From: a virus | Lineage: Duplodnaviria > Heunggongvirae > Uroviricota > Caudoviricetes | IMG/VR virus record: IMGVR_UViG_3300014519_000074 | Direction: 5' to 3' (one strand) | Length of the DNA stretch: 22,079 nucleotides | In this document: positions 1,893 to 21,045 of the stretch, piece by piece | Numbering within the stretch: the first letter of the stretch is position 1 | Layout of the letters: every line of letters starts with the position of its first letter | Position numbers and translations under genes: made by a program | The notes under the pieces: generated by a model | What the model saw: only the letters and a program-made list of their open reading frames with translations | The model's database searches: none | What the model was told of the DNA's origin: nothing

Positions 1893-4800
1893 GCGTCGTA
1901 TCCCCCCTGATCGCTGTAGTTACTCCTGGCTTTTGCCTTCAGCCTGCGTTCACGTTCATCAAGCTGGCGTGCCACCTCCCGCGCAATATCCTGCGCACTT
2001 TGTCCTGGCTGCGTCTGAATGATGATCTGCGTCGGTGCCTCAATCCGTTGAACGAGCGGCACAGTGGCTGCGCGACTCACAATTGCTTCTCCACCTTTCG
2101 CGGGAAGTGCCAAAGGGTGCAACGGTGGAAGCTCTGCTGGCGCGGCAGCAACGCCCATCATTCCGGCAACAACGGCAGCCAGTGCAGCTGTATTTCTCCG
2201 GCTGGTCACATTTGCCGGGCCGTTAACAATTTCCGGCCCGTTTTCACCGACGATGCCAAACTGCCCTCGCGGGATATACCCGCCGCTGTCATACATCCCC
2301 GCAAAGCCATATCCCCATGATGGAAAACCACCCGATGGCATCATCACTTTACCGTCTGCATTCACCGTCGCAGGTTGCTGACGCGTCACGCTTTCCGGCA
2401 GTTTTGCCTTTGCGGCCTCTTTACTGACAATGCCGAGCTTCTCCAGCAACCAGGAAACGCCGGATTTCAGGGAGTCCAGCGGATGCATGACCATATTCAG
2501 CCCTTCCGCCAGTGCCTCCCCGAATCGCCGCCCCATTGCCGCTGCACTCTGCAGTTCGGCAGAGGTCGACTTAACGGGCGTCAGCAGATCAGTAAACCAG
2601 CCCCACAGCGCCTGTACTTTGTCGCCAATCCACTGAAACACAGGCTTAAGTGGTTCGAATGCAGCACTGATGGGACCTGCCGCCGCTTTGAATCCTTCCA
2701 CCACGCCACCGAGAAATGCGGTGATGGGTTGCCAGTATTTCCAGACAACCAGCGCCACGCCCGCCAGTGCAGTAACCACAAGACCTATCGGACTGAGCAG
2801 AGCACCTAACAGACCAGATATGGCATACAGGGCAACGCGCAGCATCGCCAGCGGACCAGATGCAAGCACACGAAGCACCGCGCCTGCGGCAGCCAGTCCA
2901 CCGCGCAGTACCGCCAGAGGATTCATAAACATCACAGCAACAGCACGTAAACCGGATAATCCAGACCGCAAAAGTGCAACCGGCGCACCTGCTACAGTTT
3001 TAAGGACATTTCCCGTCAGTGATGCCGTGCGGCGCAAAGACGACAACGGCGCAGTAAGTAAACCTGCGGCGTTGCCCGATGAAGCAAGCCCGCGTCGCAG
3101 CAGTGCCAGTGGTGCGCCAGCCAGCCAGGACAACGCGCTGCTGGTTCGAGTTACTGCTGCCGTAACGGAAGATAACGTTTTGATACCCAGCACAGAGAAT
3201 CCCAGACGGATCACTGCCAGCGGCCCCAGCACTGCAGCCAGCGCCACCGCTAAGGTGCCGAGGCCGACGGTAACCGCAGCCACAACAGCCGATGCTTTCA
3301 TCAGTGTGCCTGTCAGTTCCGGGTTAGCTTCCACCCAGCGACGCAACGCCCCCGTGACGCTTTTCACCGTGTACAGAATATCCATCAGCGGCTGGCGCAG
3401 CGTTTCGCCCAGGCTGCTGAAGGTGTTCTGCGCTCCGGTTTTGACCAGCAACCACTGCGCAGAAAGTGAATCCTTGTTAATGTCGGATTCTTTCTGCATG
3501 GAGCCGAGCGCATCATTGCCCGCTGTCAGTTTTAACTGACGCTGCAGTTCCGGCAGGTTGTTTGCCAGTTTCGCCGCGTCATCGCCAAACTCTTTACCAA
3601 ACAACATAGTCATGGCAGACAGGCGCTTGTCCTGCGGCAGCGCGTTTACCTTCTCCAGCACGCGCTGGATGGTTCCCATCGCATCCTTCGTCATCTGCTT
3701 TTCAATCACTTCAGGATTGAGTTTCAGCAGATTCATCCCTTCAAAGAAACTTTTGCTTTGCATGGTGGCAATGGACAATTCACACACCATCGCGTTTGCT
3801 GCACTGGCTGCAACCTCTGGCGCAGCGCCCAGTGTCAGGAAGGTGGAACCCAGCGCCGCCGCTTTACGATAATCCAGACGGTCAGCCACACCGCCCAGAC
3901 GTTGCATCACATCAATGATGTCTGCCCCTTTCGACATGGCGTTATCATCCAGATAGTTCAGCGCATCACCGAGCTGTTCAATATTGCGGGTGGGGATTTT
4001 GTAGAGCTGGGCGATTTTCCCCAGACTTTCTGACAGTTCATCCGCTGGCAGCTCAAAGGCTGTTGCCGCCTTTGCTGCCGTACTGGCGAAGGCCAGCAGG
4101 TCACGTTTCTGATCTTCCCAACTGTCGTCAGGGTTTGCGACGTTCATGCGCGCGCCACCTTCAACCAGTGCAGCGAAATCCACAGCACCGTTTTCCATCG
4201 GCAACTGTTCGCTGGCAGCCTTGATGGCATCCTGCATTTCATAAAAACGTGCAGTGCGGTTGCCATTATCGTCACGCAGACCATTGACCTGCTTTGCCAC
4301 ACCTTTCATGGCATCTTCCATGCTGGTATAGCTTTTTACTGCCGCCATCACTGGTGCGCCCATTGCCAGCCCTGCAGCCGTGGTGGTGGCTCCGGCACCT
4401 GCAATACGATCACGCACCTCCAGCGAACGGGCATAACTGGCACGCGCTGCATTCATCCTGCGCTGAGCTTCCCCCAGTCGCTTCAGCCGCGCCTCCTGTT
4501 TCGAAAGTTCCTGGTTATAACGTGATGTTTCACGGGCTAAACGGGCAGTTGCTCCCGCATCGTCTTTCGCAGAAATTCCCGCCCGGTACAGTTCAGCACG
4601 CACAAGCGCCGTCTGCTGCTGCAGCTTTTTCTGGCGTTCTTCCAGGCGCTGAACAGCCAGCCGTTGACGGCCCAGAGCAACAACCTGACGTTGCGAAGGC
4701 GGCCCCATCGCTCCCAGTTCCTGACTGAGCAAATTTGCACGCTGGCGGGCATAGTTCAGCCTGTCGCCTAATTTCTGATTTTCTGCCTGCAGCTTTCGGA

Positions 4801-5449: not shown

Positions 5450-5965
5450 TCAGAGGCCGAGGGCGTTGCGGTGCGCTTCCATCAGGTCCACACCGTCCAC
5501 AATTTCCACCATGTTGATAAGGTCCACTTCATAGAGCACCTCACCATTGATGGTCAGCTTCGCGTAGCTGTTGGTACTGGTCACTTTGGTGGTGTTGCTT
5601 TCGCCCGTCTTCCACTCGCCGGAATCCACTTCTTTGTGACGTCCACGCACGACAAGCTCCACGGCCTGCACTTCCCCGGTATCGTCACGCTGAATAGAGC
5701 CGGTAAAGCGCAGCTGGATGCCATCCACCGTGGCTTTACCCATCTGTTTAAACAGCAGCAATTCAGTACCACCAATGGAAAATTCTGTATCCAGCGCACT
5801 GTCATCAAGCCCCAGATCCACATCCACCGCACCCGGCATTCCGCCGCCGCGATACTTCTCATATTTGCGGGTAAATTTCGGCAGCGTCAGCGACTCAACG
5901 ATCCCCTGCCAGTTGTTCCCGTCGTTAAACAGGTTCAGGTGTTTTAATTTGCGTGGTAAAGCCAT
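5450..5965 (-). CDS. FII: Tail tube protein FII
   Basis: 171-aa ORF MALPRKLKHLNLFNDGNNWQG...; size and sequence as for P2 gpFII; lies immediately downstream of the sheath 3' fragment. Confidence 0.9.
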   Translation of the reverse strand: MALPRKLKHLNLFNDGNNWQGIVESLTLPKFTRKYEKYRGGGMPGAVDVDLGLDDSALDTEFSIGGTELLLFKQMGKATVDGIQLRFTGSIQRDDTGEVQAVELVVRGRHKEVDSGEWKTGESNTTKVTSTNSYAKLTINGEVLYEVDLINMVEIVDGVDLMEAHRNALGL

Positions 5966-5974
5966 GTTGTCCCC

Positions 5975-6195
5975 TTACGCGCTGACCTGGCTGGCGAAAT
6001 TAACCAGGTACTGATCGGTGATGCGCTGACGCAGCATCAGGTTTTCAAGTGGCGGCACTGGCGTGTAGTCGTAGTCGATGGTGAGTTTTCCGGCTTTCAG
6101 CGTGTCTTTGTCGTTCACCGACTCATCCAGCCAGCAATCACCACCAATGAGATAGCCCTGACTGACCAGGCTGCGCATTTTGGCGCGGATACCTT
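5975..6195 (-). pseudogene. FI: Tail sheath FI, 3' fragment (C-terminal ~73 codons), separated from the rest of the gene by an inversion
   Basis: Minus-strand translation ...G|[71 protein letters not shown] matches the sheath C-terminus (P2 gpFI ...[31 protein letters not shown]...). The [13 protein letters not shown] prefix of the tracked ORF is junction/cassette-derived, not sheath. Confidence 0.85.
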
Positions 6196-6207
6196 GGTTT
6201 GGGAGAA
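6182..6207. other. Hybrid recombination site (inversion junction 2): good gix/cix-like half-site TTCTCCCAAACC + AA core (minus-strand reading) fused to sheath-derived GGTATCCGCGCC
   Basis: Plus strand GGCGCGGATACC TT GGTTTGGGAGAA. The cassette-side half is identical to the half-site at 8045..8056; the other half is FI coding sequence. Confidence 0.7.
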
Positions 6208-6543
6208 TTATCTCTGGCTGGCACTGCATCGGGTGTCATTGGCCTGAATGGGTATGTAACGATCCCGTTAATTATTTCAGGTTCCCGGAGAACACTGATT
6301 ATTCAGTGGGGGCAGGCGAGATTTGGTGGGTCTGGTGGTGAAGATGCCGGATATCTTAACGATTTTCCTTTTGCCTTTCCGTCAGCATGTTATGGAATGA
6401 TAGTTAGTCATGTGGGGCATACACCTTCAGGCGCAGGAATCCTGTCGGCTTCTGCAATTACATCAAATCAGTTCCGCGGTTTTTCAAGCATAGCGACTGC
6501 TGTAAACGCTGTATTAGGTCGTTATATCGCTATAGGGGTGTAA
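6196..6543 (+). CDS. Tail fibre C-terminal variable cassette (Sv-like); no start codon or promoter of its own, in frame with the H constant part across the crossover site in the reconstructed orientation
   Basis: Open frame begins at the crossover core ([16 protein letters not shown]...[10 protein letters not shown]...GRYIAIGV) and is followed directly by a tail-fibre assembly gene; arrangement matches Mu/P1 Sv-U cassettes. Confidence 0.75.
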
Positions 6544-6544
6544 T

Positions 6545-6982
6545 ATGTTTTATAGTCCATCTTTAAACATTTTTGTGAATCCTGCACTTAAGGATGATTA
6601 CATTAATGCAAATTCATGGCCAGATGATGCTCTGGCTGTCAGTGATGATGTTTATAATGAATTTGCAATCAATACGCCTCCAGATGACAAAATTCGTGTT
6701 GCAGGAAAAAATGGATTACCCACATGGGCACTAATACCTCCACCATCACATGAAGAACTTATTCAACAGGCAGAATCAGAAAGGCAATTATTGCTTAATC
6801 AGGCCAACGAATACATGAACAGTAAACAATGGCCCGGTAAAGCCGCTATTGGTCGTCTGAAAAGCGAGGAACTGGCGCAATATAATTCGTGGCTGGATTA
6901 TCTGGACGCACTGGAGCTAGTCGATACTACCGGTGCGCCAGATATTGAATGGCCTACGCCTCCGGCAGTTCAGGCCAGATGA
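6545..6982 (+). CDS. Tail fibre assembly chaperone (Tfa, U-like) for the Sv cassette
   Basis: 145-aa ORF starting at the stop of Sv (TAAtATG); C-terminus ...GAPDIEWPTPP resembles the conserved Tfa C-terminal motif; converges on and overlaps U' by 29 bp. Confidence 0.8.
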   Translation: MFYSPSLNIFVNPALKDDYINANSWPDDALAVSDDVYNEFAINTPPDDKIRVAGKNGLPTWALIPPPSHEELIQQAESERQLLLNQANEYMNSKQWPGKAAIGRLKSEELAQYNSWLDYLDALELVDTTGAPDIEWPTPPAVQAR

Positions 6983-7556
6983 CATCCGGCGCGGTGCTGG
7001 TATCTGTTGCCGCCACCGCGTCAATGTAATCCAGCACGGCGTTAAGTCGGGTTGTTTCTGCCTGCGTCAACTTCCGTCCGGCCTGTAATTTCAGCTGAAT
7101 CAGACTAATGGAAGCCATTGCTGCATCAATCAGTGACTGGCGCTGTGCTTCTGCCGCGTCTACTGCGGCACTATGCTGTGCCTCAGTATCCGTCACCCAT
7201 TTCTCACCATCCCATTTATCATATGGCGTTAACGGGGCGATAGTGGTTGTATTTTCAGGGTAATCACCCGGAGCTGTGATTTCTTTCGATTCTCCTGTTT
7301 CGGTGCTATAGATGATTTCACCGCGATGGTCTGGCACATATTCCCATGAGTTAAAATCTGCAGAACGGCAGATTGCATAACCAGCTTTATGTGTAACTGG
7401 TGCATCTAAACAAGAACATGCCGGGATACCGACGCCAACCGCAAGATATTCAGTTGATGTGGAAATATATTCCCGCGTTTCACCATCATAATTATAAATG
7501 GTAATGTCTCCCGCTTTTATGGCAATGAGTTCGTTATTTAATACGGCTTTATTCAT
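6954..7556 (-). CDS. Tail fibre assembly chaperone (Tfa, U'-like) for the Sv' cassette
   Basis: 200-aa ORF directly downstream of Sv' on the minus strand; C-terminus ...TAPDVIWPELPEA parallels that of the opposing Tfa. Confidence 0.8.
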   Translation of the reverse strand: MNKAVLNNELIAIKAGDITIYNYDGETREYISTSTEYLAVGVGIPACSCLDAPVTHKAGYAICRSADFNSWEYVPDHRGEIIYSTETGESKEITAPGDYPENTTTIAPLTPYDKWDGEKWVTDTEAQHSAAVDAAEAQRQSLIDAAMASISLIQLKLQAGRKLTQAETTRLNAVLDYIDAVAATDTSTAPDVIWPELPEA

Positions 7557-8098
7557 CAGGCAGCCCTCACGATATAGTTAAATGCAATATTCCGTGGACG
7601 GGTTTCATTTATCCCATATGCTGTTGTTCTCTGATTCCCGACAAAATATCCATTTGGATTAGAAGATACAGAATAATCATCAAAATCAAGTGGGCTATCA
7701 GCACCCGGCGTCAGGCTTGCAATATATCCTCTTCCCATAACTTCTGATGCTGGTATTTCTTTTGTACGATAATCACTAACTCTGAAGAGCTGCCCTTGGT
7801 GGGTGTGTGATTCCACTCCTCCATTCTGAAGACTTAGCAAGGCACGTACAGCATCAATACCACGCCCGTCATCCCAGCCACGAATAAACTCACCACGTAA
7901 ATCAGGCAATTTATTTGTCGGATAAGCCTTTGCCAGTTCCGGGTATTCTTCAGCAGAAAAAGCGGCACCGTTGCATTTCAGCCAGCCTGTTGGCGGAGTG
8001 GCTGAAGGCCACGGAACAGGCACCCCAACCGGTAATGCAGAGCCTTCTCCCAAACCAACGTTTAAGAAAATGCAGAGGTAACAGCTAACTGGCATCAT
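7556..8098 (-). CDS. Alternative tail fibre C-terminal variable cassette (Sv'-like); functional portion begins at the crossover site (about 8056) and would be fused to H after cassette inversion
   Basis: Translation ...FLNVGLGEGSALPVGVPVPWPSATPPTGWLKCNGAAF...HTHQGQLF... resembles the tail-collar-type receptor-binding C-termini of Mu S'/P1 fibres; its 5' end contains the gix-like site, and the GLGE codons are identical to the start of the Sv cassette. Confidence 0.75.
   Translation of the reverse strand: MMPVSCYLCIFLNVGLGEGSALPVGVPVPWPSATPPTGWLKCNGAAFSAEEYPELAKAYPTNKLPDLRGEFIRGWDDGRGIDAVRALLSLQNGGVESHTHQGQLFRVSDYRTKEIPASEVMGRGYIASLTPGADSPLDFDDYSVSSNPNGYFVGNQRTTAYGINETRPRNIAFNYIVRAA
8045..8070. 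other. Intact gix/cix/hix-like 26-bp recombination site: TTCTCCCAAACC AA CGTTTAAGAAAA
   Basis: 12-2-12 imperfect dyad resembling DNA-invertase crossover sites (hix/gix/cix as remembered); lies at the Sv' 5' end just upstream of the invertase gene; its left half is an inverted copy of the half-site at 6196..6207. Confidence 0.7.
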
Positions 8099-8125
8099 CT
8101 CCGGTTTTTATTCAGGGGGATGATC

Positions 8126-8692
8126 ATGCTTATTGGCTATGTACGCGTGTCAACAAATGACCAGAACACCGATTTGCAACGTAATGCACTGAACTGCGCG
8201 GGATGTGAGCAGATTTTTGAGGACAAAATCAGTGGCACTAAGTCCGACAGACCGGGGCTGAAAAAACTACTCAGGACACTATCGGCAGGAGACACGCTGG
8301 TTGTCTGGAAGCTGGACAGGTTGGGGCGCAGTATGCGGCATCTTGTTACGCTGATAGAAGAGTTGCGCCAGCGTGGTGTGAATTTCAGAAGCCTGACTGA
8401 CAGTATTGATACCAGTACCCCAATGGGCCGTTTCTTTTTTCATGTCATGGGTGCCCTGGCTGAAATGGAACGCGAACTGATAGTTGAACGTACCAGGGCA
8501 GGGCTGGCTGCAGCTCGTGCCAAAGGCAGAGTAGGTGGACGCCGTCCTAAGTTGACCACCGAACAGTGGGCACAGATTGGGCGTTTACTCGAGGCCGGAG
8601 AATCAAGACAGCGTATTGCACTGATTTTTGATGTAGGCGTTTCTACCATTTATAGAAAATTTCCGGCAAATAAGATCAATGAATCCCCCTGA
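8126..8692 (+). CDS. Serine DNA invertase of the Gin/Pin/Cin/Hin family (ORF track start 8120; ATG at 8126 gives MLIGYVRVST...)
   Basis: Translation MLIGYVRVSTNDQNTDLQRNALNCAGCEQIFEDKISGTKSDRPGLKKLL...DTLVVWKLDRLGRSMRHL...GRFFFHVMGALAEMERELIVERT...GGRRPKLT...VGVSTIYRKFP is near-identical in pattern to Gin/Cin/Pin, with the catalytic Ser in the YVRVST motif and a C-terminal helix-turn-helix; GGGGGA Shine-Dalgarno upstream. Confidence 0.95.
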   Translation: MLIGYVRVSTNDQNTDLQRNALNCAGCEQIFEDKISGTKSDRPGLKKLLRTLSAGDTLVVWKLDRLGRSMRHLVTLIEELRQRGVNFRSLTDSIDTSTPMGRFFFHVMGALAEMERELIVERTRAGLAAARAKGRVGGRRPKLTTEQWAQIGRLLEAGESRQRIALIFDVGVSTIYRKFPANKINESP

Positions 8693-8740
8693 ATCAGCAT
8701 TATGTTGATTATCCCTGCAAGCAGACAAATACCGTTATTT

Positions 8741-8758
8741 TGTGTGAATAACGACACA
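8741..8758. promoter_or_regulatory. Candidate Ogr-type activator site (TGT-N12-ACA) of a PF-like late promoter, about 80 bp upstream of the FI start
   Basis: TGTGTGAATAACGACACA seen in the invertase-FI intergenic region; P2 late promoters carry TGT-N12-ACA dyads centred near -55. The motif is short and expected by chance a few times in 22 kb. Confidence 0.4.
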
Positions 8759-8834
8759 ACTGCGCTTAGCTGTTTGTCAGGCACAATCACTTCAACATAG
8801 GGCGAAGCCTAATCCAATCAGGAGGTTCGCCACT

Positions 8835-9797
8835 ATGGCTCAGGATTACCACCACGGGGTGCGCGTTGTTGAAGTCAACGAAGGTACCCGATCTATTACC
8901 ACGGTGAGCACCGCCATCGTGGGTATGGTCTGCACGGGCGATGATGCCGATGCAAAAATGTTTCCTCTTAATAAACCCGTGCTGATCACTGATGTGCTGA
9001 CTGCCAGCGGTAAAGCGGGTGAGTCAGGTACTCTGGCCCGTTCGCTGGATGCCATCGCTGACCAGGCAAAACCCGTGACCATTGTTGTGCGTGTGCCGCA
9101 GGGTGAAACGGAAGACGAAACCACGACCAATATCATCGGCGCAGTGACTGCAGAAGGTAAAAAAACAGGTATGAAAGCCCTGTTATCTGCCCAGTCACAG
9201 CTCGGCGTTAAACCGCGCATTCTCGGCGTGCCAGGCCACGACACCAAGGCGGTAGCTACTGAGTTGCTGAGCGTGGCGCAAAGCCTGCGTGGATTTGCTT
9301 ACCTGTCAGCGTATGGCTGCAAGACAGTGCAGGAGGCGATCACTTACCGCGAAAACTTCAGCCAGCGCGAAGGGATGCTGATCTGGCCTGACTTTACTGG
9401 CTGGGACACGGTGCTGAATGCCGAAGCAACGGCATATGCCACCGCCCGTGCGCTTGGTCTGCGCGCCAAAATTGACGAGCAGACCGGATGGCACAAAAGC
9501 CTGTCCAACGTGGGCGTGAACGGTGTCACCGGAATTTCTGCAGATGTGTTCTGGGATCTGCAGGACCCGGCAACCGATGCAGGTCTGCTGAACCAGAACG
9601 ACGTCACCACGCTTGTGCGTAAAGACGGTTTCCGCTTCTGGGGTTCCCGCTGCCTGAGTGATGACCCGCTCTTTGCCTTCGAAAACTACACCCGCACGGC
9701 GCAGGTGCTGATGGACACGATGGCAGAAGCACACATGTGGGCGGTGGATAAACCGCTTAACCCGTCGCTGGCCCGCGACATTATCGAAGGTATGTGA
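8835..9797 (+). pseudogene. FI: Tail sheath FI, 5' part (N-terminal 320 codons), truncated by the inversion junction; opposite strand to all flanking late genes
   Basis: Translation MAQDYHHGVRVVEVNEGTRSITTVSTAIVGMVCTG...FENYTRTAQVLMDTMAEAHMWAVDKPL...ARDIIEG is colinear with the P2 sheath N-terminal ~320 residues; it ends with M-stop contributed by junction sequence; AGGAGG Shine-Dalgarno upstream. Confidence 0.88.
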
Positions 9798-9800
9798 GAA
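9775..9800. other. Hybrid recombination site (inversion junction 1): sheath-derived GCGACATTATCG + AA core + gix-like half-site GGTATGTGAGAA from gene H
   Basis: Joining FI 8835..9788 to the reverse complement of 6193..5975 restores ...[15 protein letters not shown]... in frame; the H-side half-site encodes the H residues LLTYL. Confidence 0.7.
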
Positions 9801-10836
9801 GACCAGCTACATCCTTTCCACTCAAATTGGTAAGCGTATTGTCCAGCGGTTGTTTACCTGCCAGCGCATTAAGCATTGTCGTGGCAAAGTTCGGATCATT
9901 CCCCAGTGCCGCCGCCAGTTCGTTCAGTGTATCCAGTGCAGCAGGTGCAGAACCCACCATTCCTGCAATCGCCGATTTCACAAAAGCCGTAGTGGCAATC
10001 TGTGTATTGTTGACCGACTGCGCCGCCGTGGGGGCTGTAGGCGTTCCGGTGAGTGCCGGACTCGACAACGGTGCTTTTAGTGCCAGCGCATTGTTAATGG
10101 TGGTACTGAAATTCGGATCATTGTTAATGGCTGCGGCTATTTCTTTCAGCGTGTCCAGCGTGGCTGGCGCACCATTAATAAGGGCCGTCAGTGCCGCCTG
10201 TACAAACGCAGTGGTCGCAACCTGCGTGGTATTATTCCCCGCCGCTGGCGTTGGCGCTTTGGGGGTTCCGGTAAATGTCGGGCTGGCTTTTGGCGCGTAC
10301 TGTGAATGCGGGTCCGGTGCGGCAAGATGTTTTGCCATCTGATCATCCGCGTACACCTTCAGCTCCAGTGCCTTGTCATCCACATACTTGCGGGTTGCCA
10401 GCACTACAGCAGGGTCGATTTTCAGGGTGATATTGTCCGTGCTGCTGGTAATCAGCACCATGCGCACGGTCTGAGTGCGCCCGCTACCTTCAGCCAGTTG
10501 CGGCTTATAGCTTTCCGGGCAGTTGCCCACGGCAATCAATGCACCTGACTCATCAAACAGGCCCACTTCACGTATCCACCAACCGCCCTCGTTTTCAGGG
10601 ATCACCTGTTCGGCAATAATCTGGCTGCTGTTCTGCGGGTCGATATAAAGCATATTCAGCGCAGCCCGGCGTTTCTCATTTACCAGTGCCGTCTGCTTTG
10701 CGTCCGGCGTTGGCAATACTCCACCGCCATCGCCCACCGCCATATGGGTAATTTTTAGCGGCACACCGAGCGCGGCGGCGCTGGCAAGTTTCGCCGCGCC
10801 AATATCCGTCAGCAGGGTATAAAATTTTGTGCTCAT
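9781..10836 (-). CDS. H: Tail fibre protein H, constant N-terminal part (351 aa), ending in a junction-derived stop and lacking a C-terminal receptor-binding cassette in this orientation
   Basis: N-terminus MSTKFYTLLTDIGAAKLASAAA...; two tandem ~70-aa fibre repeats (...NTQVATTAFV...DPNF...); last codons ...LLTYLR* cross the junction into FI-derived sequence. Confidence 0.85.
   Translation of the reverse strand: MSTKFYTLLTDIGAAKLASAAALGVPLKITHMAVGDGGGVLPTPDAKQTALVNEKRRAALNMLYIDPQNSSQIIAEQVIPENEGGWWIREVGLFDESGALIAVGNCPESYKPQLAEGSGRTQTVRMVLITSSTDNITLKIDPAVVLATRKYVDDKALELKVYADDQMAKHLAAPDPHSQYAPKASPTFTGTPKAPTPAAGNNTTQVATTAFVQAALTALINGAPATLDTLKEIAAAINNDPNFSTTINNALALKAPLSSPALTGTPTAPTAAQSVNNTQIATTAFVKSAIAGMVGSAPAALDTLNELAAALGNDPNFATTMLNALAGKQPLDNTLTNLSGKDVAGLLTYLR
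9844..10281. repeat. Tandem duplication (2 x ~215 bp) encoding two copies of a ~72-aa tail-fibre shaft repeat within H
   Basis: Protein repeats TGTPKAPTPAAGNNTTQVATTAFVQAALTALINGAPATLDTLKEIAAAINNDPNFSTTINNALALKAPL and TGTPTAPTAAQSVNNTQIATTAFVKSAIAGMVGSAPAALDTLNELAAALGNDPNFATTMLNALAGKQPL; the nucleotide copies both contain TTCGGATCATT. Confidence 0.7.
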
Positions 10837-13775: not shown

Positions 13776-14199
13776 GTTTCACCGTCCACATTTCTTCAGG
13801 TTCATCAGGTTCCGCTATAGCTTCAACGCTCGACACACTGCCGTCAGTGCTGACCAGCACACGCTCCGTCAGTTGCAGGTTGAGGCTGATATCACAGACA
13901 TCGTTGCGCAGAATATCCACCTCAAAGGTGAATAGCTTTTCCCGTAACGCCGGGTTATTGATGGCATCGGGCTGGTTATCACGCAGCCACAGCAAAACCG
14001 GGGCCATCAGCAGATTCTGGTCGCCGCTGAAATCCTCAATCACCACGTTCAGGGTGTAGCGGTACTCCCATGACATGGAGCTGGCCCCCGTGGCAACCAG
14101 CGAACCGTTATCCACAAACAGATGCAGTTTGTCCGGGTTATTGCGGACATAAGGCACCGCTTTATTGAGGGCGTGGCGCAGGGATTGTGGTTTGTTCAC
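13768..14199 (-). CDS. R: Tail completion protein R (GTG start at 14199 preceded by AGGAG; ORF track begins at an upstream TTG at 14220)
   Basis: From the GTG: (M)NKPQSLRHALNKAVPYVRNNPDKLHLFVDNGS..., colinear with P2 gpR (MLKPDSLRRAL...); AGGAGCGAAACA-GTG seen on the minus strand. Confidence 0.85.
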   Translation of the reverse strand: MNKPQSLRHALNKAVPYVRNNPDKLHLFVDNGSLVATGASSMSWEYRYTLNVVIEDFSGDQNLLMAPVLLWLRDNQPDAINNPALREKLFTFEVDILRNDVCDISLNLQLTERVLVSTDGSVSSVEAIAEPDEPEEMWTVKRG

Positions 14200-19278: not shown

Positions 19279-21045
19279 ATGAACACCACACTGACACCCG
19301 CAGATCTCGATCCCCGTCGGCAGGCCATGCTGCTGTACTTTCAGGGATACCGCGTAGCCCGCATTGCTGAAATGCTGGGCGAGAAAGTTGCAACCGTTCA
19401 CAGCTGGAAAAAACGCGACAAGTGGGGTGACTATGGGCCGCTGGATCAGATGCAGCTCACCACCGCCGCACGCTACTGCCAGCTCATCATGAAGGAGCAC
19501 AAAGAAGGGAAAGATTTCAAAGAGATTGACCTGCTGGCGCGCCAGTCGGAGCGCCACGCGCGGATCGGCAAGTTTAACAATGGCGGCAACGAAGCCGACT
19601 TAAACCCTAACGTCGCCAACCGCAATAAAGGCCCACGCCGTCAGCCGGAAAAGAATGTTTTCACCGATGAGCAGATTGAGAAGCTGGAAGAAATCTTCCA
19701 TTCCTCCATGTTCAACTACCAGCGCCACTGGTGGGAAGCCGGAAAAACCAACCGCATCCGCAACCTGCTGAAGTCACGCCAGATCGGCGCGACCTTTTAC
19801 TTTGCCCGTGAAGCCCTGATTGACGCCCTGCTTACCGGACGTAACCAGATTTTCCTTTCCGCCAGCAAGGCACAGGCCCACGTCTTTAAGCAGTACATCA
19901 TCGACTTCGCCAAAGAAGTGGGGGTGGAGTTGAAAGGCGATCCGATGGTGCTTCCTAACGGGGCCACGCTTTACTTCCTCGGCACCAATGCCCGCACGGC
20001 CCAGAGTTATCACGGCAACCTGTATCTGGATGAATATTTCTGGATACCGAAATTCCAGGAGCTGCGCAAAGTGGCTTCCGGTATGGCTATTCACAAAAAA
20101 TGGCGACAAACCTATTTTTCCACGCCATCCAGCCTGACACACAGTGCTTATCCGTTCTGGTCCGGTGCGCTGTTCAACCGTGGGCGCAACAAGGCCGACA
20201 AGGTGGACATCGACCTGTCCCACAGCAATCTGGCCCCCGGCCTGCTGTGCGCAGACGGGCAATACCGCCAGATAGTCACCGTGGAAGATGCGGTGCGCGG
20301 CGGCTGTAACCTGTTCGACCTTGACCAGTTGCGCATGGAGTACAGCCCGGACGAATACCAGAACCTGCTGATGTGCGAGTTTGTGGACGATCTCGCGTCC
20401 GTATTTCCGCTCAGCGAGCTGCAGGCGTGCATGGTGGACAGCTGGGAAGTCTGGACCGACTTTCATGCACTGGCTCTGCGCCCGTTTGGCTGGCGCGAAG
20501 TGTGGATCGGTTATGACCCGGCAAAAGGTACGCAAAACGGCGACAGCGCCGGATGCGTGGTGGTGGCACCGCCAGCCGTGCCTGGTGGTAAGTTCCGCAT
20601 TCTTGAGCGTCACCAGTGGCGCGGGATGGACTTCCGCGCCCAGGCTGACGCCATCAAAAAACTGACCGAACAGTACAACGTGACCTATATCGGTATCGAC
20701 TCAACCGGCGTTGGTCACGGGGTTTATGAGAACGTGAAAGCGTTCTTTCCTGCCGTCCGGGAGTTTGTCTACAACCCCAATGTTAAAAACGCCCTGGTAC
20801 TCAAGGCCTACGACATTATCAGCCACCGCCGTCTGGAGTTTGACGCCGGGCACACCGACATTGCGCAGTCATTTATGGCAATCCGTCGCGCTACCACTGC
20901 CAGTGGCAACCGCCCGACCTATGAAGCCAGCCGCAGCGAAGAAGCCAGCCATGCCGATCTGGCCTGGGCAACAATGCACGCACTGTTTAACGAACCGCTG
21001 CAGGGCGAGTCCGCCAATACCAGCAATATTGTGGAGATTTTTTGA
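19279..21045 (+). CDS. P: Terminase large (ATPase) subunit P
   Basis: 588-aa ORF; ...LKSRQIGATFYFAREALIDALLTGRNQIFLSASKAQAHVFKQYIIDFA... (Walker-A-like QIGAT) ...SRSEEASHADLAWATMHAL..., colinear with P2 gpP. Confidence 0.93.
   Translation: MNTTLTPADLDPRRQAMLLYFQGYRVARIAEMLGEKVATVHSWKKRDKWGDYGPLDQMQLTTAARYCQLIMKEHKEGKDFKEIDLLARQSERHARIGKFNNGGNEADLNPNVANRNKGPRRQPEKNVFTDEQIEKLEEIFHSSMFNYQRHWWEAGKTNRIRNLLKSRQIGATFYFAREALIDALLTGRNQIFLSASKAQAHVFKQYIIDFAKEVGVELKGDPMVLPNGATLYFLGTNARTAQSYHGNLYLDEYFWIPKFQELRKVASGMAIHKKWRQTYFSTPSSLTHSAYPFWSGALFNRGRNKADKVDIDLSHSNLAPGLLCADGQYRQIVTVEDAVRGGCNLFDLDQLRMEYSPDEYQNLLMCEFVDDLASVFPLSELQACMVDSWEVWTDFHALALRPFGWREVWIGYDPAKGTQNGDSAGCVVVAPPAVPGGKFRILERHQWRGMDFRAQADAIKKLTEQYNVTYIGIDSTGVGHGVYENVKAFFPAVREFVYNPNVKNALVLKAYDIISHRRLEFDAGHTDIAQSFMAIRRATTASGNRPTYEASRSEEASHADLAWATMHALFNEPLQGESANTSNIVEIF

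What the first reader, a model, noticed from the sequence alone, without database searches (positions are those of the whole stretch)
5975..9797. Tail sheath gene FI is split in two, with its 5' part on the opposite strand 2.6 kb from its 3' part
The first ~320 sheath codons are on the plus strand (8835..9797), ending in a junction-derived Met-stop. The last ~73 sheath codons are on the minus strand (6195..5975), directly upstream of the tube gene FII. Joined head-to-tail after inverting the intervening DNA they give one continuous ~393-codon sheath ORF (...ARDIIEG|IRAKMRSL...), the size of P2 gpFI. As it stands, this prophage cannot make a full-length contractile sheath.
Basis: partly seen in the sequence, partly recalled or inferred. 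Interest (0 to 1): 0.85.

Follow-up and report, generated by a model that had tools for sequence, protein, structure and literature searches.

The report
Prophage invertase misfire splits tail genes
In this P2-like E. coli prophage, the phage's own tail-fibre DNA invertase has flipped a 3.6-kb segment using a look-alike site inside the sheath gene, which breaks both the sheath and tail-fibre genes; the state is real and inherited by a whole bacterial lineage, but the mechanism is a known one.

Summary
The sheath gene is split into a 5' part (8835..9797, + strand) and a 3' part (6195..5975, - strand). Re-inverting 6196..9786 in silico restores a 390-aa sheath and a 465-aa tail fibre H. Both are identical to the proteins of an intact sister prophage in E. 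coli N32.

The other breakpoint is the native 26-bp crossover site of tail-fibre gene H. The inverted segment carries the invertible tail-fibre cassette, a Gin-like serine invertase and the sheath promoter. Exchange occurred at the central TT of a native site and of a weak quasi-site in the sheath gene, with no base gained or lost.

The arrangement is not an assembly error. It is present in two complete E. coli genomes, and the exact truncated sheath protein occurs on 190 contigs. The inner 1.86-kb cassette is found in both orientations within this lineage, so the system recombined at least once after the large inversion.

A second, independent case in E. coli JNEC-KY202 pairs the same H site with a quasi-site in an apl/cox-like gene.

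Secondary-site recombination is known for P1 Cin, so this is a natural new member of a known kind. Interest is moderate.

The parts
5450..5965 (-). Tail tube gene FII. It is intact but is now separated from the F-operon late promoter.
   Evidence: Pfam Phage_tube, E 9e-60. The promoter separation is inferred.
5975..6195 (-). Sheath gene 3' fragment (residues 319/320-390 plus stop). The ORF caller extends it to 6229 as an 84-aa chimera that starts in tail-fibre DNA.
   Evidence: Collinear with the intact sheath genes of CE10 and N32 up to 6195.
6182..6207 (+). Hybrid crossover site A: GGCGCGGATACC-TT-GGTTTGGGAGAA. The left half comes from the sheath gene and the right half is the native inner half-site.
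   Evidence: It is the boundary of the inner-cassette flip seen in AR_0013 and AF57.
6196..9786 (.). The 3,591-bp inverted segment lying between the two central dinucleotides.
   Evidence: Window 6189..9793 is a single piece on the strand opposite to both flanks in E. coli N32. Re-inversion gives 15,605 bp collinear with N32, with 5 mismatches and 0 gaps.
6199..6543 (+). Variable C-terminal tail-fibre exon Sv, now detached from the constant part of H.
   Evidence: Pfam Gp53-like_C. It fuses in frame to the constant part of H after re-inversion, giving a 465-aa H identical to that of N32.
6545..6982 (+). Tail-fibre assembly protein that is cognate to Sv.
   Evidence: Pfam Caudo_TAP, E 1e-32.
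6954..7556 (-). Alternative tail-fibre assembly protein (tfaE-like).
   Evidence: Pfam Caudo_TAP, E 3e-32. Annotated as tfaE in CE10.
7556..8058 (-). Alternative variable tail-fibre exon Sv' (Collar domain). The mechanical ORF runs on to 8098.
   Evidence: Pfam Collar. It is fused to the constant part of H in CE10, giving a 516-aa tail fibre.
8045..8070 (-). Native crossover site R, TTTTCTTAAACG-TT-GGTTTGGGAGAA, next to the invertase gene.
   Evidence: (inverted repeat I5). PWM score +23.5 bits.
8126..8692 (+). Gin/Cin/Pin-type serine DNA invertase, 188 aa and intact.
   Evidence: Pfam Resolvase plus HTH_7. Matches Mu Gin structure 3uj3 at E 3e-93. 140 residues identical to Mu Gin, with the catalytic VRVSTNDQ motif conserved. 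Carries the same RefSeq accession (WP_000905010.1) as in the intact CE10 and N32 prophages.
8741..8758 (+). Putative P_F late promoter element, TGT-N12-ACA. It lies inside the inverted segment and now points into the antisense strand of H.
   Evidence: Motif position. P2 late-promoter consensus and operon structure from PMC3931495. The function here is inferred.
8835..9797 (+). Sheath gene 5' fragment: residues 1-319, then a junction-derived Met and stop.
   Evidence: This exact 320-aa product is recorded on 190 contigs.
9775..9800 (-). Hybrid crossover site B: TTCTCACATACC-TT-CGATAATGTCGC. The first half is the native outer half-site of H and the second half comes from the sheath gene.
   Evidence: The junction is present in AR_0013 and AF57 at 100% identity.
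9781..10836 (-). Constant N-terminal part of tail-fibre gene H, truncated at the crossover site (351-aa ORF).
   Evidence: Pfam Phage_tail_fib, E 7e-65. Annotated as a pseudogene missing its C-terminus in AR_0013 and AF57. The exact product is recorded on 189 contigs.

Best explanation
The resident Gin-like serine invertase normally flips a 1.86-kb tail-fibre cassette between two native 26-bp sites. On one occasion it instead paired the native site in tail-fibre gene H with a weak quasi-site, GGCGCGGATACC-TT-CGATAATGTCGC, inside sheath gene FI. Both sites have the same central TT. Conservative exchange at that dinucleotide inverted 3,591 bp: the cassette, the invertase gene, the F-operon late promoter and the first 319 sheath codons. 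The result is two reciprocal hybrid sites, a truncated sheath gene and a truncated tail-fibre gene. The tube, tape-measure, U and D genes are cut off from their late promoter, so in this state the prophage cannot build a tail (the last two points are inferred). The state is heritable and fixed in an E. coli lineage. The system stayed active, because the inner cassette has since flipped between hybrid site A and native site R.
For: Shown:
- Re-inverting 6196..9786 restores the sheath and H proteins exactly, and gives 15.6 kb collinear with the intact N32 prophage with no indel.
- One breakpoint is the core of a native site. The restored site, TTCTCACATACC-TT-GGTTTGGGAGAA, scores +27 bits on a PWM built only from the EC958 prophage sites in PMC4134206.
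- The two partner sites share the central TT and lie in inverted orientation.
- The invertase is intact and close to Mu Gin.
- The same junction B is present in two complete genomes. The truncated sheath product is on 190 contigs and the truncated H product on 189.
- Within this lineage (shared alleles G5230 and A5929), both orientations of the inner cassette occur. The exchange is pinned to the TT, because flanking positions 6193 and 8059 stay in place.
- An independent second case in JNEC-KY202/KY174 pairs the same H site, at the same TT, with a quasi-site in an apl/cox-like gene.

From established knowledge: Cin uses secondary or quasi crossover sites at low frequency, and the choice depends on the central dinucleotide (Iida & Hiestand-Nauer 1986 and 1987, as cited in PMC4134206; Arber in PMC4270481).
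Against: - No experiment was done; the catalyst is inferred from the anatomy of the breakpoints.
- The quasi-site is a very poor match: -4 bits against +24 to +27 for native sites, and only 13th of 2,638 TT/AA-centred 26-mers in the window. The site preference is therefore not explained.
- A related invertase acting in trans from another prophage cannot be excluded.
- The two inner-cassette states could in principle be two independent large inversions. The SNP tree is star-like and cannot count flips.
- The Fis enhancer was not identified.
- The loss of the F-operon promoter rests on a motif that, taken alone, is not enriched above chance.
Confidence: 0.85

Rival explanations
1. Programmed, reversible switch. 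Sites A and B would recombine back at a useful rate, so the invertase would toggle tail production ON and OFF as a three-site shufflon as well as switching host range.
For: Hybrid sites A and B each keep one native half-site and the same TT core, and they lie in inverted orientation. Hybrid site A demonstrably still recombines with R. The tail, lysis and head genes compared remain 99.9% or more identical to the intact CE10 and N32 prophages, with no further disruption. Three-site inversion systems exist in P2-like prophages (PMC4272514).
Against: An unbiased look-up by the lineage's gpE allele found 15 contigs with the broken arrangement and none with that allele and an intact sheath at the LysR-side site seen in the loci that reach the chromosome. 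Every intact copy with that allele lay in another context, such as the ybjL site. The quasi-site is present in more than 1000 genomes but was used in only one lineage, as expected for a rare accident. No read-level data were available.
Confidence: 0.1
2. Invertase-independent illegitimate recombination between the 7-bp inverted microhomology ATACCTT/AAGGTAT.
For: A 7-bp overlap exists at both breakpoints. A 7-mer is expected a few times by chance in 22 kb.
Against: One breakpoint coincides exactly with the core of the native 26-bp crossover site, which is a 7-bp target in 22 kb. A second independent inversion, in JNEC-KY202, uses the same H site and the same TT with a different partner. The exchange is perfectly conservative.
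Confidence: 0.04
3. Assembly misjoin across the inverted repeats of the invertible cassette.
For: Invertible segments do produce spurious alternative contigs in assemblies (PMC4134206).
Against: The breakpoints are not at repeated sequence longer than 7 bp. The same junctions occur in two complete chromosomes, in further chromosome-sized NCBI contigs (L009, L023, L028), and in Illumina-era drafts, Logan and ENA assemblies. In total the truncated sheath product is on 190 contigs. Four assemblies are collinear with the window across both junctions.
Confidence: 0.01

Closest known systems
Cin recombinase of phage P1 acting at quasi (secondary) crossover sites (Iida & Hiestand-Nauer 1986 Cell 45:71 and 1987 Mol Gen Genet 208:464, as cited in PMC4134206; Arber, PMC4270481)
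   Same: A tail-fibre serine invertase pairs a native site with a poorly matching secondary site that shares the central dinucleotide. This produces reciprocal hybrid sites and gene fusions or disruptions.
   Different: To my knowledge the P1 work was done in laboratory selections; I did not read those two papers. Here the event occurred naturally inside the phage's own late region, destroyed two essential tail genes, and became fixed in a bacterial lineage.
Mu G segment with Gin, e14 P segment with Pin, and the EC958 prophage tail-fibre switches (PMC4134206)
   Same: Same cassette layout (Sv-tfa / tfa'-Sv' followed by the invertase), 26-bp sites and a Gin-like enzyme with 140 residues identical to Mu Gin. 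Both cassette orientations are seen among genomes.
   Different: The inversion studied here extends 1.7 kb beyond the cassette, through the invertase gene and into the sheath gene. One partner is not a native site.
Three-site shufflon-like inversion in an EPEC P2-like prophage (Goldberg et al. 2014, PMC4272514)
   Same: A P2-like prophage in which more than two sites recombine, giving more than two genomic arrangements.
   Different: In EPEC all the sites are native and all the products are alternative tail-fibre C-termini. Here the third site is an accidental one in the sheath gene, and its products are broken genes.
PinQ-driven inversion of the e14 P segment, which creates the chimeric protein StfE2 (Kirigo et al. 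2025, PMC12529663)
   Same: Invertase-driven inversion in a prophage creates new chimeric ORFs. Invertases can also act in trans on other prophages.
   Different: StfE2 arises from a native invertible segment and has a demonstrated anti-phage role. No function is known or indicated for the 84-aa or 115-aa chimeras or for the truncated sheath found here.
Prophage 'grounding' by recombinase-mediated inversion at secondary sites (HK022 Int; Dorgai et al. 1993, as cited in PMC6379469)
   Same: A phage's own site-specific recombinase inverts prophage DNA at a secondary site and so disables the prophage.
   Different: That case involves a tyrosine integrase and att sites and affects excision. This case involves a serine invertase and affects tail morphogenesis. 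The int and att regions lie outside the window and were not examined.

Membership tests
Gin/Hin/Cin/Pin serine DNA invertase system with an invertible tail-fibre cassette | Small serine recombinase: an N-terminal resolvase catalytic domain with the active-site Ser, and a C-terminal HTH. | tested here: met
   Pfam Resolvase E 2e-53 and HTH_7 E 1.5e-15. Mu Gin structure 3uj3 matches at E 3e-93 over residues 1-184. 140 residues are identical to Mu Gin, and the VRVSTNDQ motif is conserved.
Gin/Hin/Cin/Pin serine DNA invertase system with an invertible tail-fibre cassette | Two 26-bp crossover sites in inverted orientation, each made of 12-bp imperfectly symmetric half-sites around a 2-bp core. | tested here: met
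   Native R is at 8045-8070. The restored L site is TTCTCACATACC-TT-GGTTTGGGAGAA. They score +23.5 and +26.8 bits on a PWM built only from the EC958 sites.
Gin/Hin/Cin/Pin serine DNA invertase system with an invertible tail-fibre cassette | Mirror-image alternative tail-fibre C-terminal exons, each with its own assembly chaperone. | tested here: met
   Gp53-like_C plus Caudo_TAP on the + strand, and Collar plus Caudo_TAP on the - strand.
Gin/Hin/Cin/Pin serine DNA invertase system with an invertible tail-fibre cassette | The cassette is actually found in both orientations. | tested here: met
   CE10 and N32 differ in cassette orientation (intact prophages). The window, L007, L014, L023 and L028 differ from AR_0013, AF57, L006, L008 and L009 (broken prophages).
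Gin/Hin/Cin/Pin serine DNA invertase system with an invertible tail-fibre cassette | A Fis-dependent recombinational enhancer in cis, inside the 5' part of the invertase gene in Mu, P1 and Salmonella. | not tested
   The first 300 bp of the gene are 53-83% identical to Mu gin in 30-bp windows. No Fis sites were mapped, and coding conservation alone proves nothing.
Quasi-site (secondary crossover site) recombination by a DNA invertase | One partner is a native site and the other has only limited similarity to the consensus. | tested here: met
   The quasi-site scores -4.1 bits (half-sites +0.9 and -5.0) against +26.8 for the native partner. It ranks 13th of 2,638 TT/AA-centred 26-mers.
Quasi-site (secondary crossover site) recombination by a DNA invertase | Identical central dinucleotide in both partners, and conservative reciprocal exchange at it. 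| tested here: met
   Both cores are TT. The hybrids A and B are exact reciprocal products. The restored sequence has 0 gaps against N32.
Quasi-site (secondary crossover site) recombination by a DNA invertase | Dependence of the event on the invertase. | not testable with these tools
   This needs genetics: an invertase deletion or overexpression combined with a PCR assay for the junction.
P2-like (Peduoviridae) prophage late region | Gene order V-W-J-I-H-(fibre cassette)-FI-FII-E-T-U-D-ogr, with TGT-N12-ACA late promoters. | tested here: met
   96.5% identity over the aligned 53% of the 5.5-kb query to Escherichia phage 500465-1 (Peduoviridae, Wadgaonvirus). The annotation of the sister prophages gives the gene order. 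TGT-N12-ACA lies upstream of FI (8741), of V (13307) and between O and P (19215). The consensus is from PMC3931495.

The most novel reading that the evidence does not exclude
The large inversion is not a dead end but a slow, reversible third state of the invertase system. Hybrid sites A and B would occasionally recombine back, so a lineage of lysogens would carry a prophage whose tail production (sheath, fibre and the F operon) is phase-variable. Most cells would be protected from producing transmissible phage, while the ability to do so would be retained.
Probability: 0.1. Interest if true: 0.7.

Novelty: new member of a known kind. Interest (0 to 1): 0.45.

Why it matters
- It is a clean natural example of a phage's own host-range switch misfiring and disabling the phage. 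This is a route to prophage decay that differs from point mutation, deletion or IS insertion.
- Two independent cases were found: H site × sheath gene, and H site × apl/cox-like gene. This suggests the native H crossover site is a recurrent source of off-target inversions in P2-like prophages.
- In practice, annotation pipelines mark these genes as unexplained "partial in the middle of a contig" pseudogenes. Prophage-completeness tools could score such elements wrongly.
- Recognising hybrid crossover sites explains these pseudogenes. It also gives natural data on the half-site tolerance of Gin-family enzymes, which are used as engineered recombinases.

Tried and rejected
1. I scanned JGI metagenome contigs and GTDB species representatives for the H outer half-site plus TT followed by a non-G base (GGTCTTCTCACATACCTTH), hoping to list more quasi-site partners. 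It gave 27 hits. All but one were chance matches in unrelated DNA. The one exception, L037, looks like a native variant inner half-site.

2. I used the tube protein allele as a lineage marker to look for revertants. That allele is the common one (54,526 blocks), so the test was uninformative. It did, however, turn up the second rearrangement, in L018.

3. I used SNPs to count how many times the inner cassette has flipped. The tree is star-like, with no informative shared SNP.

4. The TGT-N12-ACA motif count across the window (6 found, 6.0 expected) is not enriched. Only the positions of the matches carry information.

5. The generic sigma-70 and terminator scan of 5900-10000 found nothing above its shuffled controls.

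6. The original quasi-site papers and R. C. Johnson's serine-invertase review are not in the held library. They are cited only through the reference list of PMC4134206 and from my own knowledge.

7. A naturally short sheath and an assembly misjoin were both rejected; see the rival explanations.
Full report
**1. What is in the window**

The window is the late region of a P2-like (Peduoviridae) prophage. The 5.5-kb query 5400-10900 matches Escherichia phage 500465-1 at 96.5% identity over the 53% that aligns. It matches prophages in E. coli CE10, N32, AR_0013 and AF57 at 99.9-100% over the parts that align.

Nearly all late genes lie on the minus strand: D, U, tape measure, E, the tube gene FII (5450..5965), then I, J, W, V and onward.

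The region 5975..10836 contains, in order:
- a sheath 3' fragment (6195..5975, - strand);
- a tail-fibre variable exon Sv (6199..6543, +) and its assembly protein (6545..6982, +);
- the mirror-image alternative pair (6954..7556 and 7556..8058, -);
- a 188-aa serine invertase (8126..8692, +);
- a sheath 5' fragment (8835..9797, +);
- the constant part of tail-fibre gene H, truncated at 351 aa (10836..9781, -).

**2.

The two sheath pieces join to give a 390-aa protein with all three sheath Pfam domains. The C-terminal domain (residues 275-377) spans the junction. The joined protein aligns over residues 5-383 with the R-pyocin sheath 3j9q, with no gap across the junction.

The coordinates given are otherwise right.

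**3. What the rearrangement is**

Comparison with intact sister prophages defines it exactly. In E. coli N32, window 6189..9793 is one uninterrupted piece on the strand opposite to both flanks. The pieces overlap by 7 bp (ATACCTT/AAGGTAT) at each end.

Re-inverting 6196..9786 in silico gives:
- a sequence collinear with N32 over 15,605 bp, with 5 mismatches and no gap;
- a 390-aa sheath and a 465-aa tail fibre H, both identical to the N32 proteins.

So this is a single conservative inversion of 3,591 bp. It cuts two genes, not one: the sheath gene FI and the tail-fibre gene H.

**4. The breakpoints are invertase crossover sites**

Written with the core as TT, the three sites in the window are:

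| Site | Coordinates | Sequence |
|---|---|---|
| A | 6182-6207 | GGCGCGGATACC-TT-GGTTTGGGAGAA |
| R | 8045-8070, reverse strand | TTTTCTTAAACG-TT-GGTTTGGGAGAA |
| B | 9775-9800, reverse strand | TTCTCACATACC-TT-CGATAATGTCGC |

R is a native site. A and B are reciprocal hybrids of two parental sites:
- the native H site, TTCTCACATACC-TT-GGTTTGGGAGAA;
- a sequence inside the sheath gene, GGCGCGGATACC-TT-CGATAATGTCGC.

The native sites fit the published 26-bp consensus and the EC958 prophage sites (PMC4134206 Table 3). On a PWM built only from the EC958 sites they score +23.5 and +26.8 bits. The sheath site scores -4.1 bits and ranks 13th of 2,638 TT/AA-centred 26-mers in the window. It is therefore a genuine quasi-site. 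It shares the core dinucleotide and the adjacent ATACC with the H site, and little else.

The invertase is intact. It has 140 residues identical to Mu Gin, with the catalytic serine motif conserved. It carries the same RefSeq accession, WP_000905010.1, in the intact CE10 and N32 prophages and in the broken AR_0013 and AF57 prophages.

Rare use of secondary crossover sites, governed by the central dinucleotide, is established for P1 Cin. This rests on Iida & Hiestand-Nauer 1986 and 1987, cited through PMC4134206, and on Arber's account in PMC4270481.

**5. The arrangement is physical and inherited**

- Junction B (sheath 5' part joined to the constant part of H) occurs at 100% identity in two of 5,426 complete E. 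coli genomes, AR_0013 and AF57. More than 1000 genomes match each half of the junction query separately.
- The exact 320-aa truncated sheath is recorded on 190 contigs, and the 351-aa truncated H on 189. Sources include NCBI, ENA, JGI and Logan, and the strains include E. coli HVH 187 and HVH 53.
- Four independent assemblies (L007, L014, L023, L028) are collinear with the window across both junctions.
- An assembly misjoin is therefore excluded.

**6. The system stayed active after the accident**

AR_0013, AF57 and several other assemblies differ from the window only by inversion of 6194..8061, which is the ordinary cassette. That cassette is now bounded by hybrid site A and native site R.

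All broken copies share alleles G5230 and A5929, which distinguish them from CE10 and N32. This points to one lineage.

Both cassette orientations are common among the contigs read: 10 against 14, and 11 against 4. Positions 6193 and 8059, which flank the core, stay in place. Exchange is therefore at the TT.

At least one A×R flip followed the large inversion. The formal alternative, two independent large inversions, cannot be excluded, because the SNP tree is star-like.

**7. Consequences (partly inferred)**

In this state no full-length sheath or tail fibre can be made. That follows directly from the sequence.

P2 late operons are driven by four Ogr-dependent promoters that carry TGT-N12-ACA. 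P_F drives FI-FII-E-E'-T-U-D (PMC3931495). In the window, the motif lies at 8741-8758, 77 bp upstream of the sheath start. Further copies lie upstream of V (13307) and between O and P (19215).

P_F therefore sits inside the inverted segment and now reads into the antisense strand of H. The tube, tape-measure, U and D genes are left without their late promoter. This step is an inference. The motif count alone is not above chance.

The head and lysis genes compared remain 99.9% or more identical to those of the intact prophages. On induction, the lysogen would be expected to make tail-less, non-infectious particles.

**8. Is it reversible?**

A and B are in inverted orientation, share the TT core, and each keeps one native half-site. 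Re-inversion is therefore chemically possible.

An unbiased look-up by the lineage's gpE allele gave 15 contigs with the broken arrangement. None combined that allele with an intact sheath at the LysR-side integration site seen in the loci that reach the chromosome. Every intact copy with that allele lay in a different context, such as the ybjL site. Reversion, if it happens, is rare. Read-level data are needed to settle this.

**9. A second, independent case**

The context look-up for the tube protein turned up L018. This led to E. coli JNEC-KY202 and KY174, two of the 5,426 complete genomes.

In these genomes the sheath is intact, but about 21 kb is inverted, from the H site back to the early region. 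The junctions are:
- TTCGCTATAACG-TT-GGTTTGGGAGAA (L018:2047-2072);
- TTCTCACATACC-TT-CGATTGTGACAT (L021:1761-1786).

These again combine native H half-sites with a quasi-site, here at about codon 17 of an apl/cox-like regulator gene.

The same H site and the same TT core with a different partner argue strongly that the invertase is the catalyst, and against random microhomology. They also suggest that such misfires recur.

**10. Comparison and verdict**

Functionally and by membership, the locus is a Gin/Cin/Pin-type tail-fibre inversion system in a P2-like prophage. All the features I could test were met; the Fis enhancer was not tested.

The large inversion is a natural instance of quasi-site recombination, a behaviour known from P1 Cin. 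It is not categorically new.

What is noteworthy:
- the accident hit the phage's own sheath and tail-fibre genes;
- it carried the invertase and a late promoter along with it;
- it was fixed in a lineage represented by roughly 190-290 assemblies;
- it left a still-flipping three-site system;
- it has an independent counterpart in another prophage.

Interest is moderate (0.45). The most novel reading not excluded is a slow, reversible ON/OFF switch for tail production. I put its probability at about 0.1.

Noticed in passing
L018:2047-2072; L020 (NZ_AP045178.1 3497476-3537716); L021:1761-1786: E. coli JNEC-KY202 and KY174, plus six draft contigs, carry a related P2-like prophage at ybjL. In it, about 21 kb from the tail-fibre H crossover site to an apl/cox-like early gene is inverted. 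The hybrid sites are TTCGCTATAACG-TT-GGTTTGGGAGAA and TTCTCACATACC-TT-CGATTGTGACAT. This is an independent quasi-site event that uses the same native H site.
   Followed up: yes
window 9152 and 10039: The window has two private substitutions, A where all 13 compared sister loci have T. One is in the sheath 5' fragment (codon 106, GCA against GCT) and one is in the truncated H gene (codon 266, CCT against CCA). Both are synonymous.
   Followed up: partly
window 20721-20732 (+): A perfect match to the invertase half-site pattern GGTTTNNGAGAA (GGTTTATGAGAA) lies inside a head-region gene, with no recognisable partner half. It is probably a chance match (about 1 expected in the window).
   Followed up: no
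window 13878-13958, compared with L002 (CE10): The CE10 prophage has an extra 81 bp here. Its tail-completion (gpR-like) protein is 170 aa, against 143 aa in the window, AR_0013, AF57 and N32. This looks like a short tandem duplication polymorphism.
   Followed up: no
window 4095-4190, compared with L009/L029 (GCA_964045765.1): One broken-lineage genome has a 96-bp tandem duplication in the tape-measure gene (1057 aa against 1025 aa).
   Followed up: no
L025 (GCA_031388985.1, plus 4 similar places): This is a prophage remnant. An intact 390-aa sheath gene and the rest of the F operon are preceded by unrelated genes (an ABC transporter and a glycosyltransferase) rather than by the invertase and fibre cassette.
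   Followed up: no
L037:2728-2746 (QZLQ01000363.1): In this metagenome contig the constant end of H and its outer half-site are followed by TT-CAATTGAGAGAA. This may be a diverged native inner half-site belonging to another fibre variant.
   Followed up: no
window 7969-7985 and 8456-8472: A 17-nt inverted repeat, 94% complementary, links the alternative fibre exon Sv' to the middle of the invertase gene (repeat finder pair I4). Its significance is unknown, and it may be chance among the 98 pairs reported.
   Followed up: no
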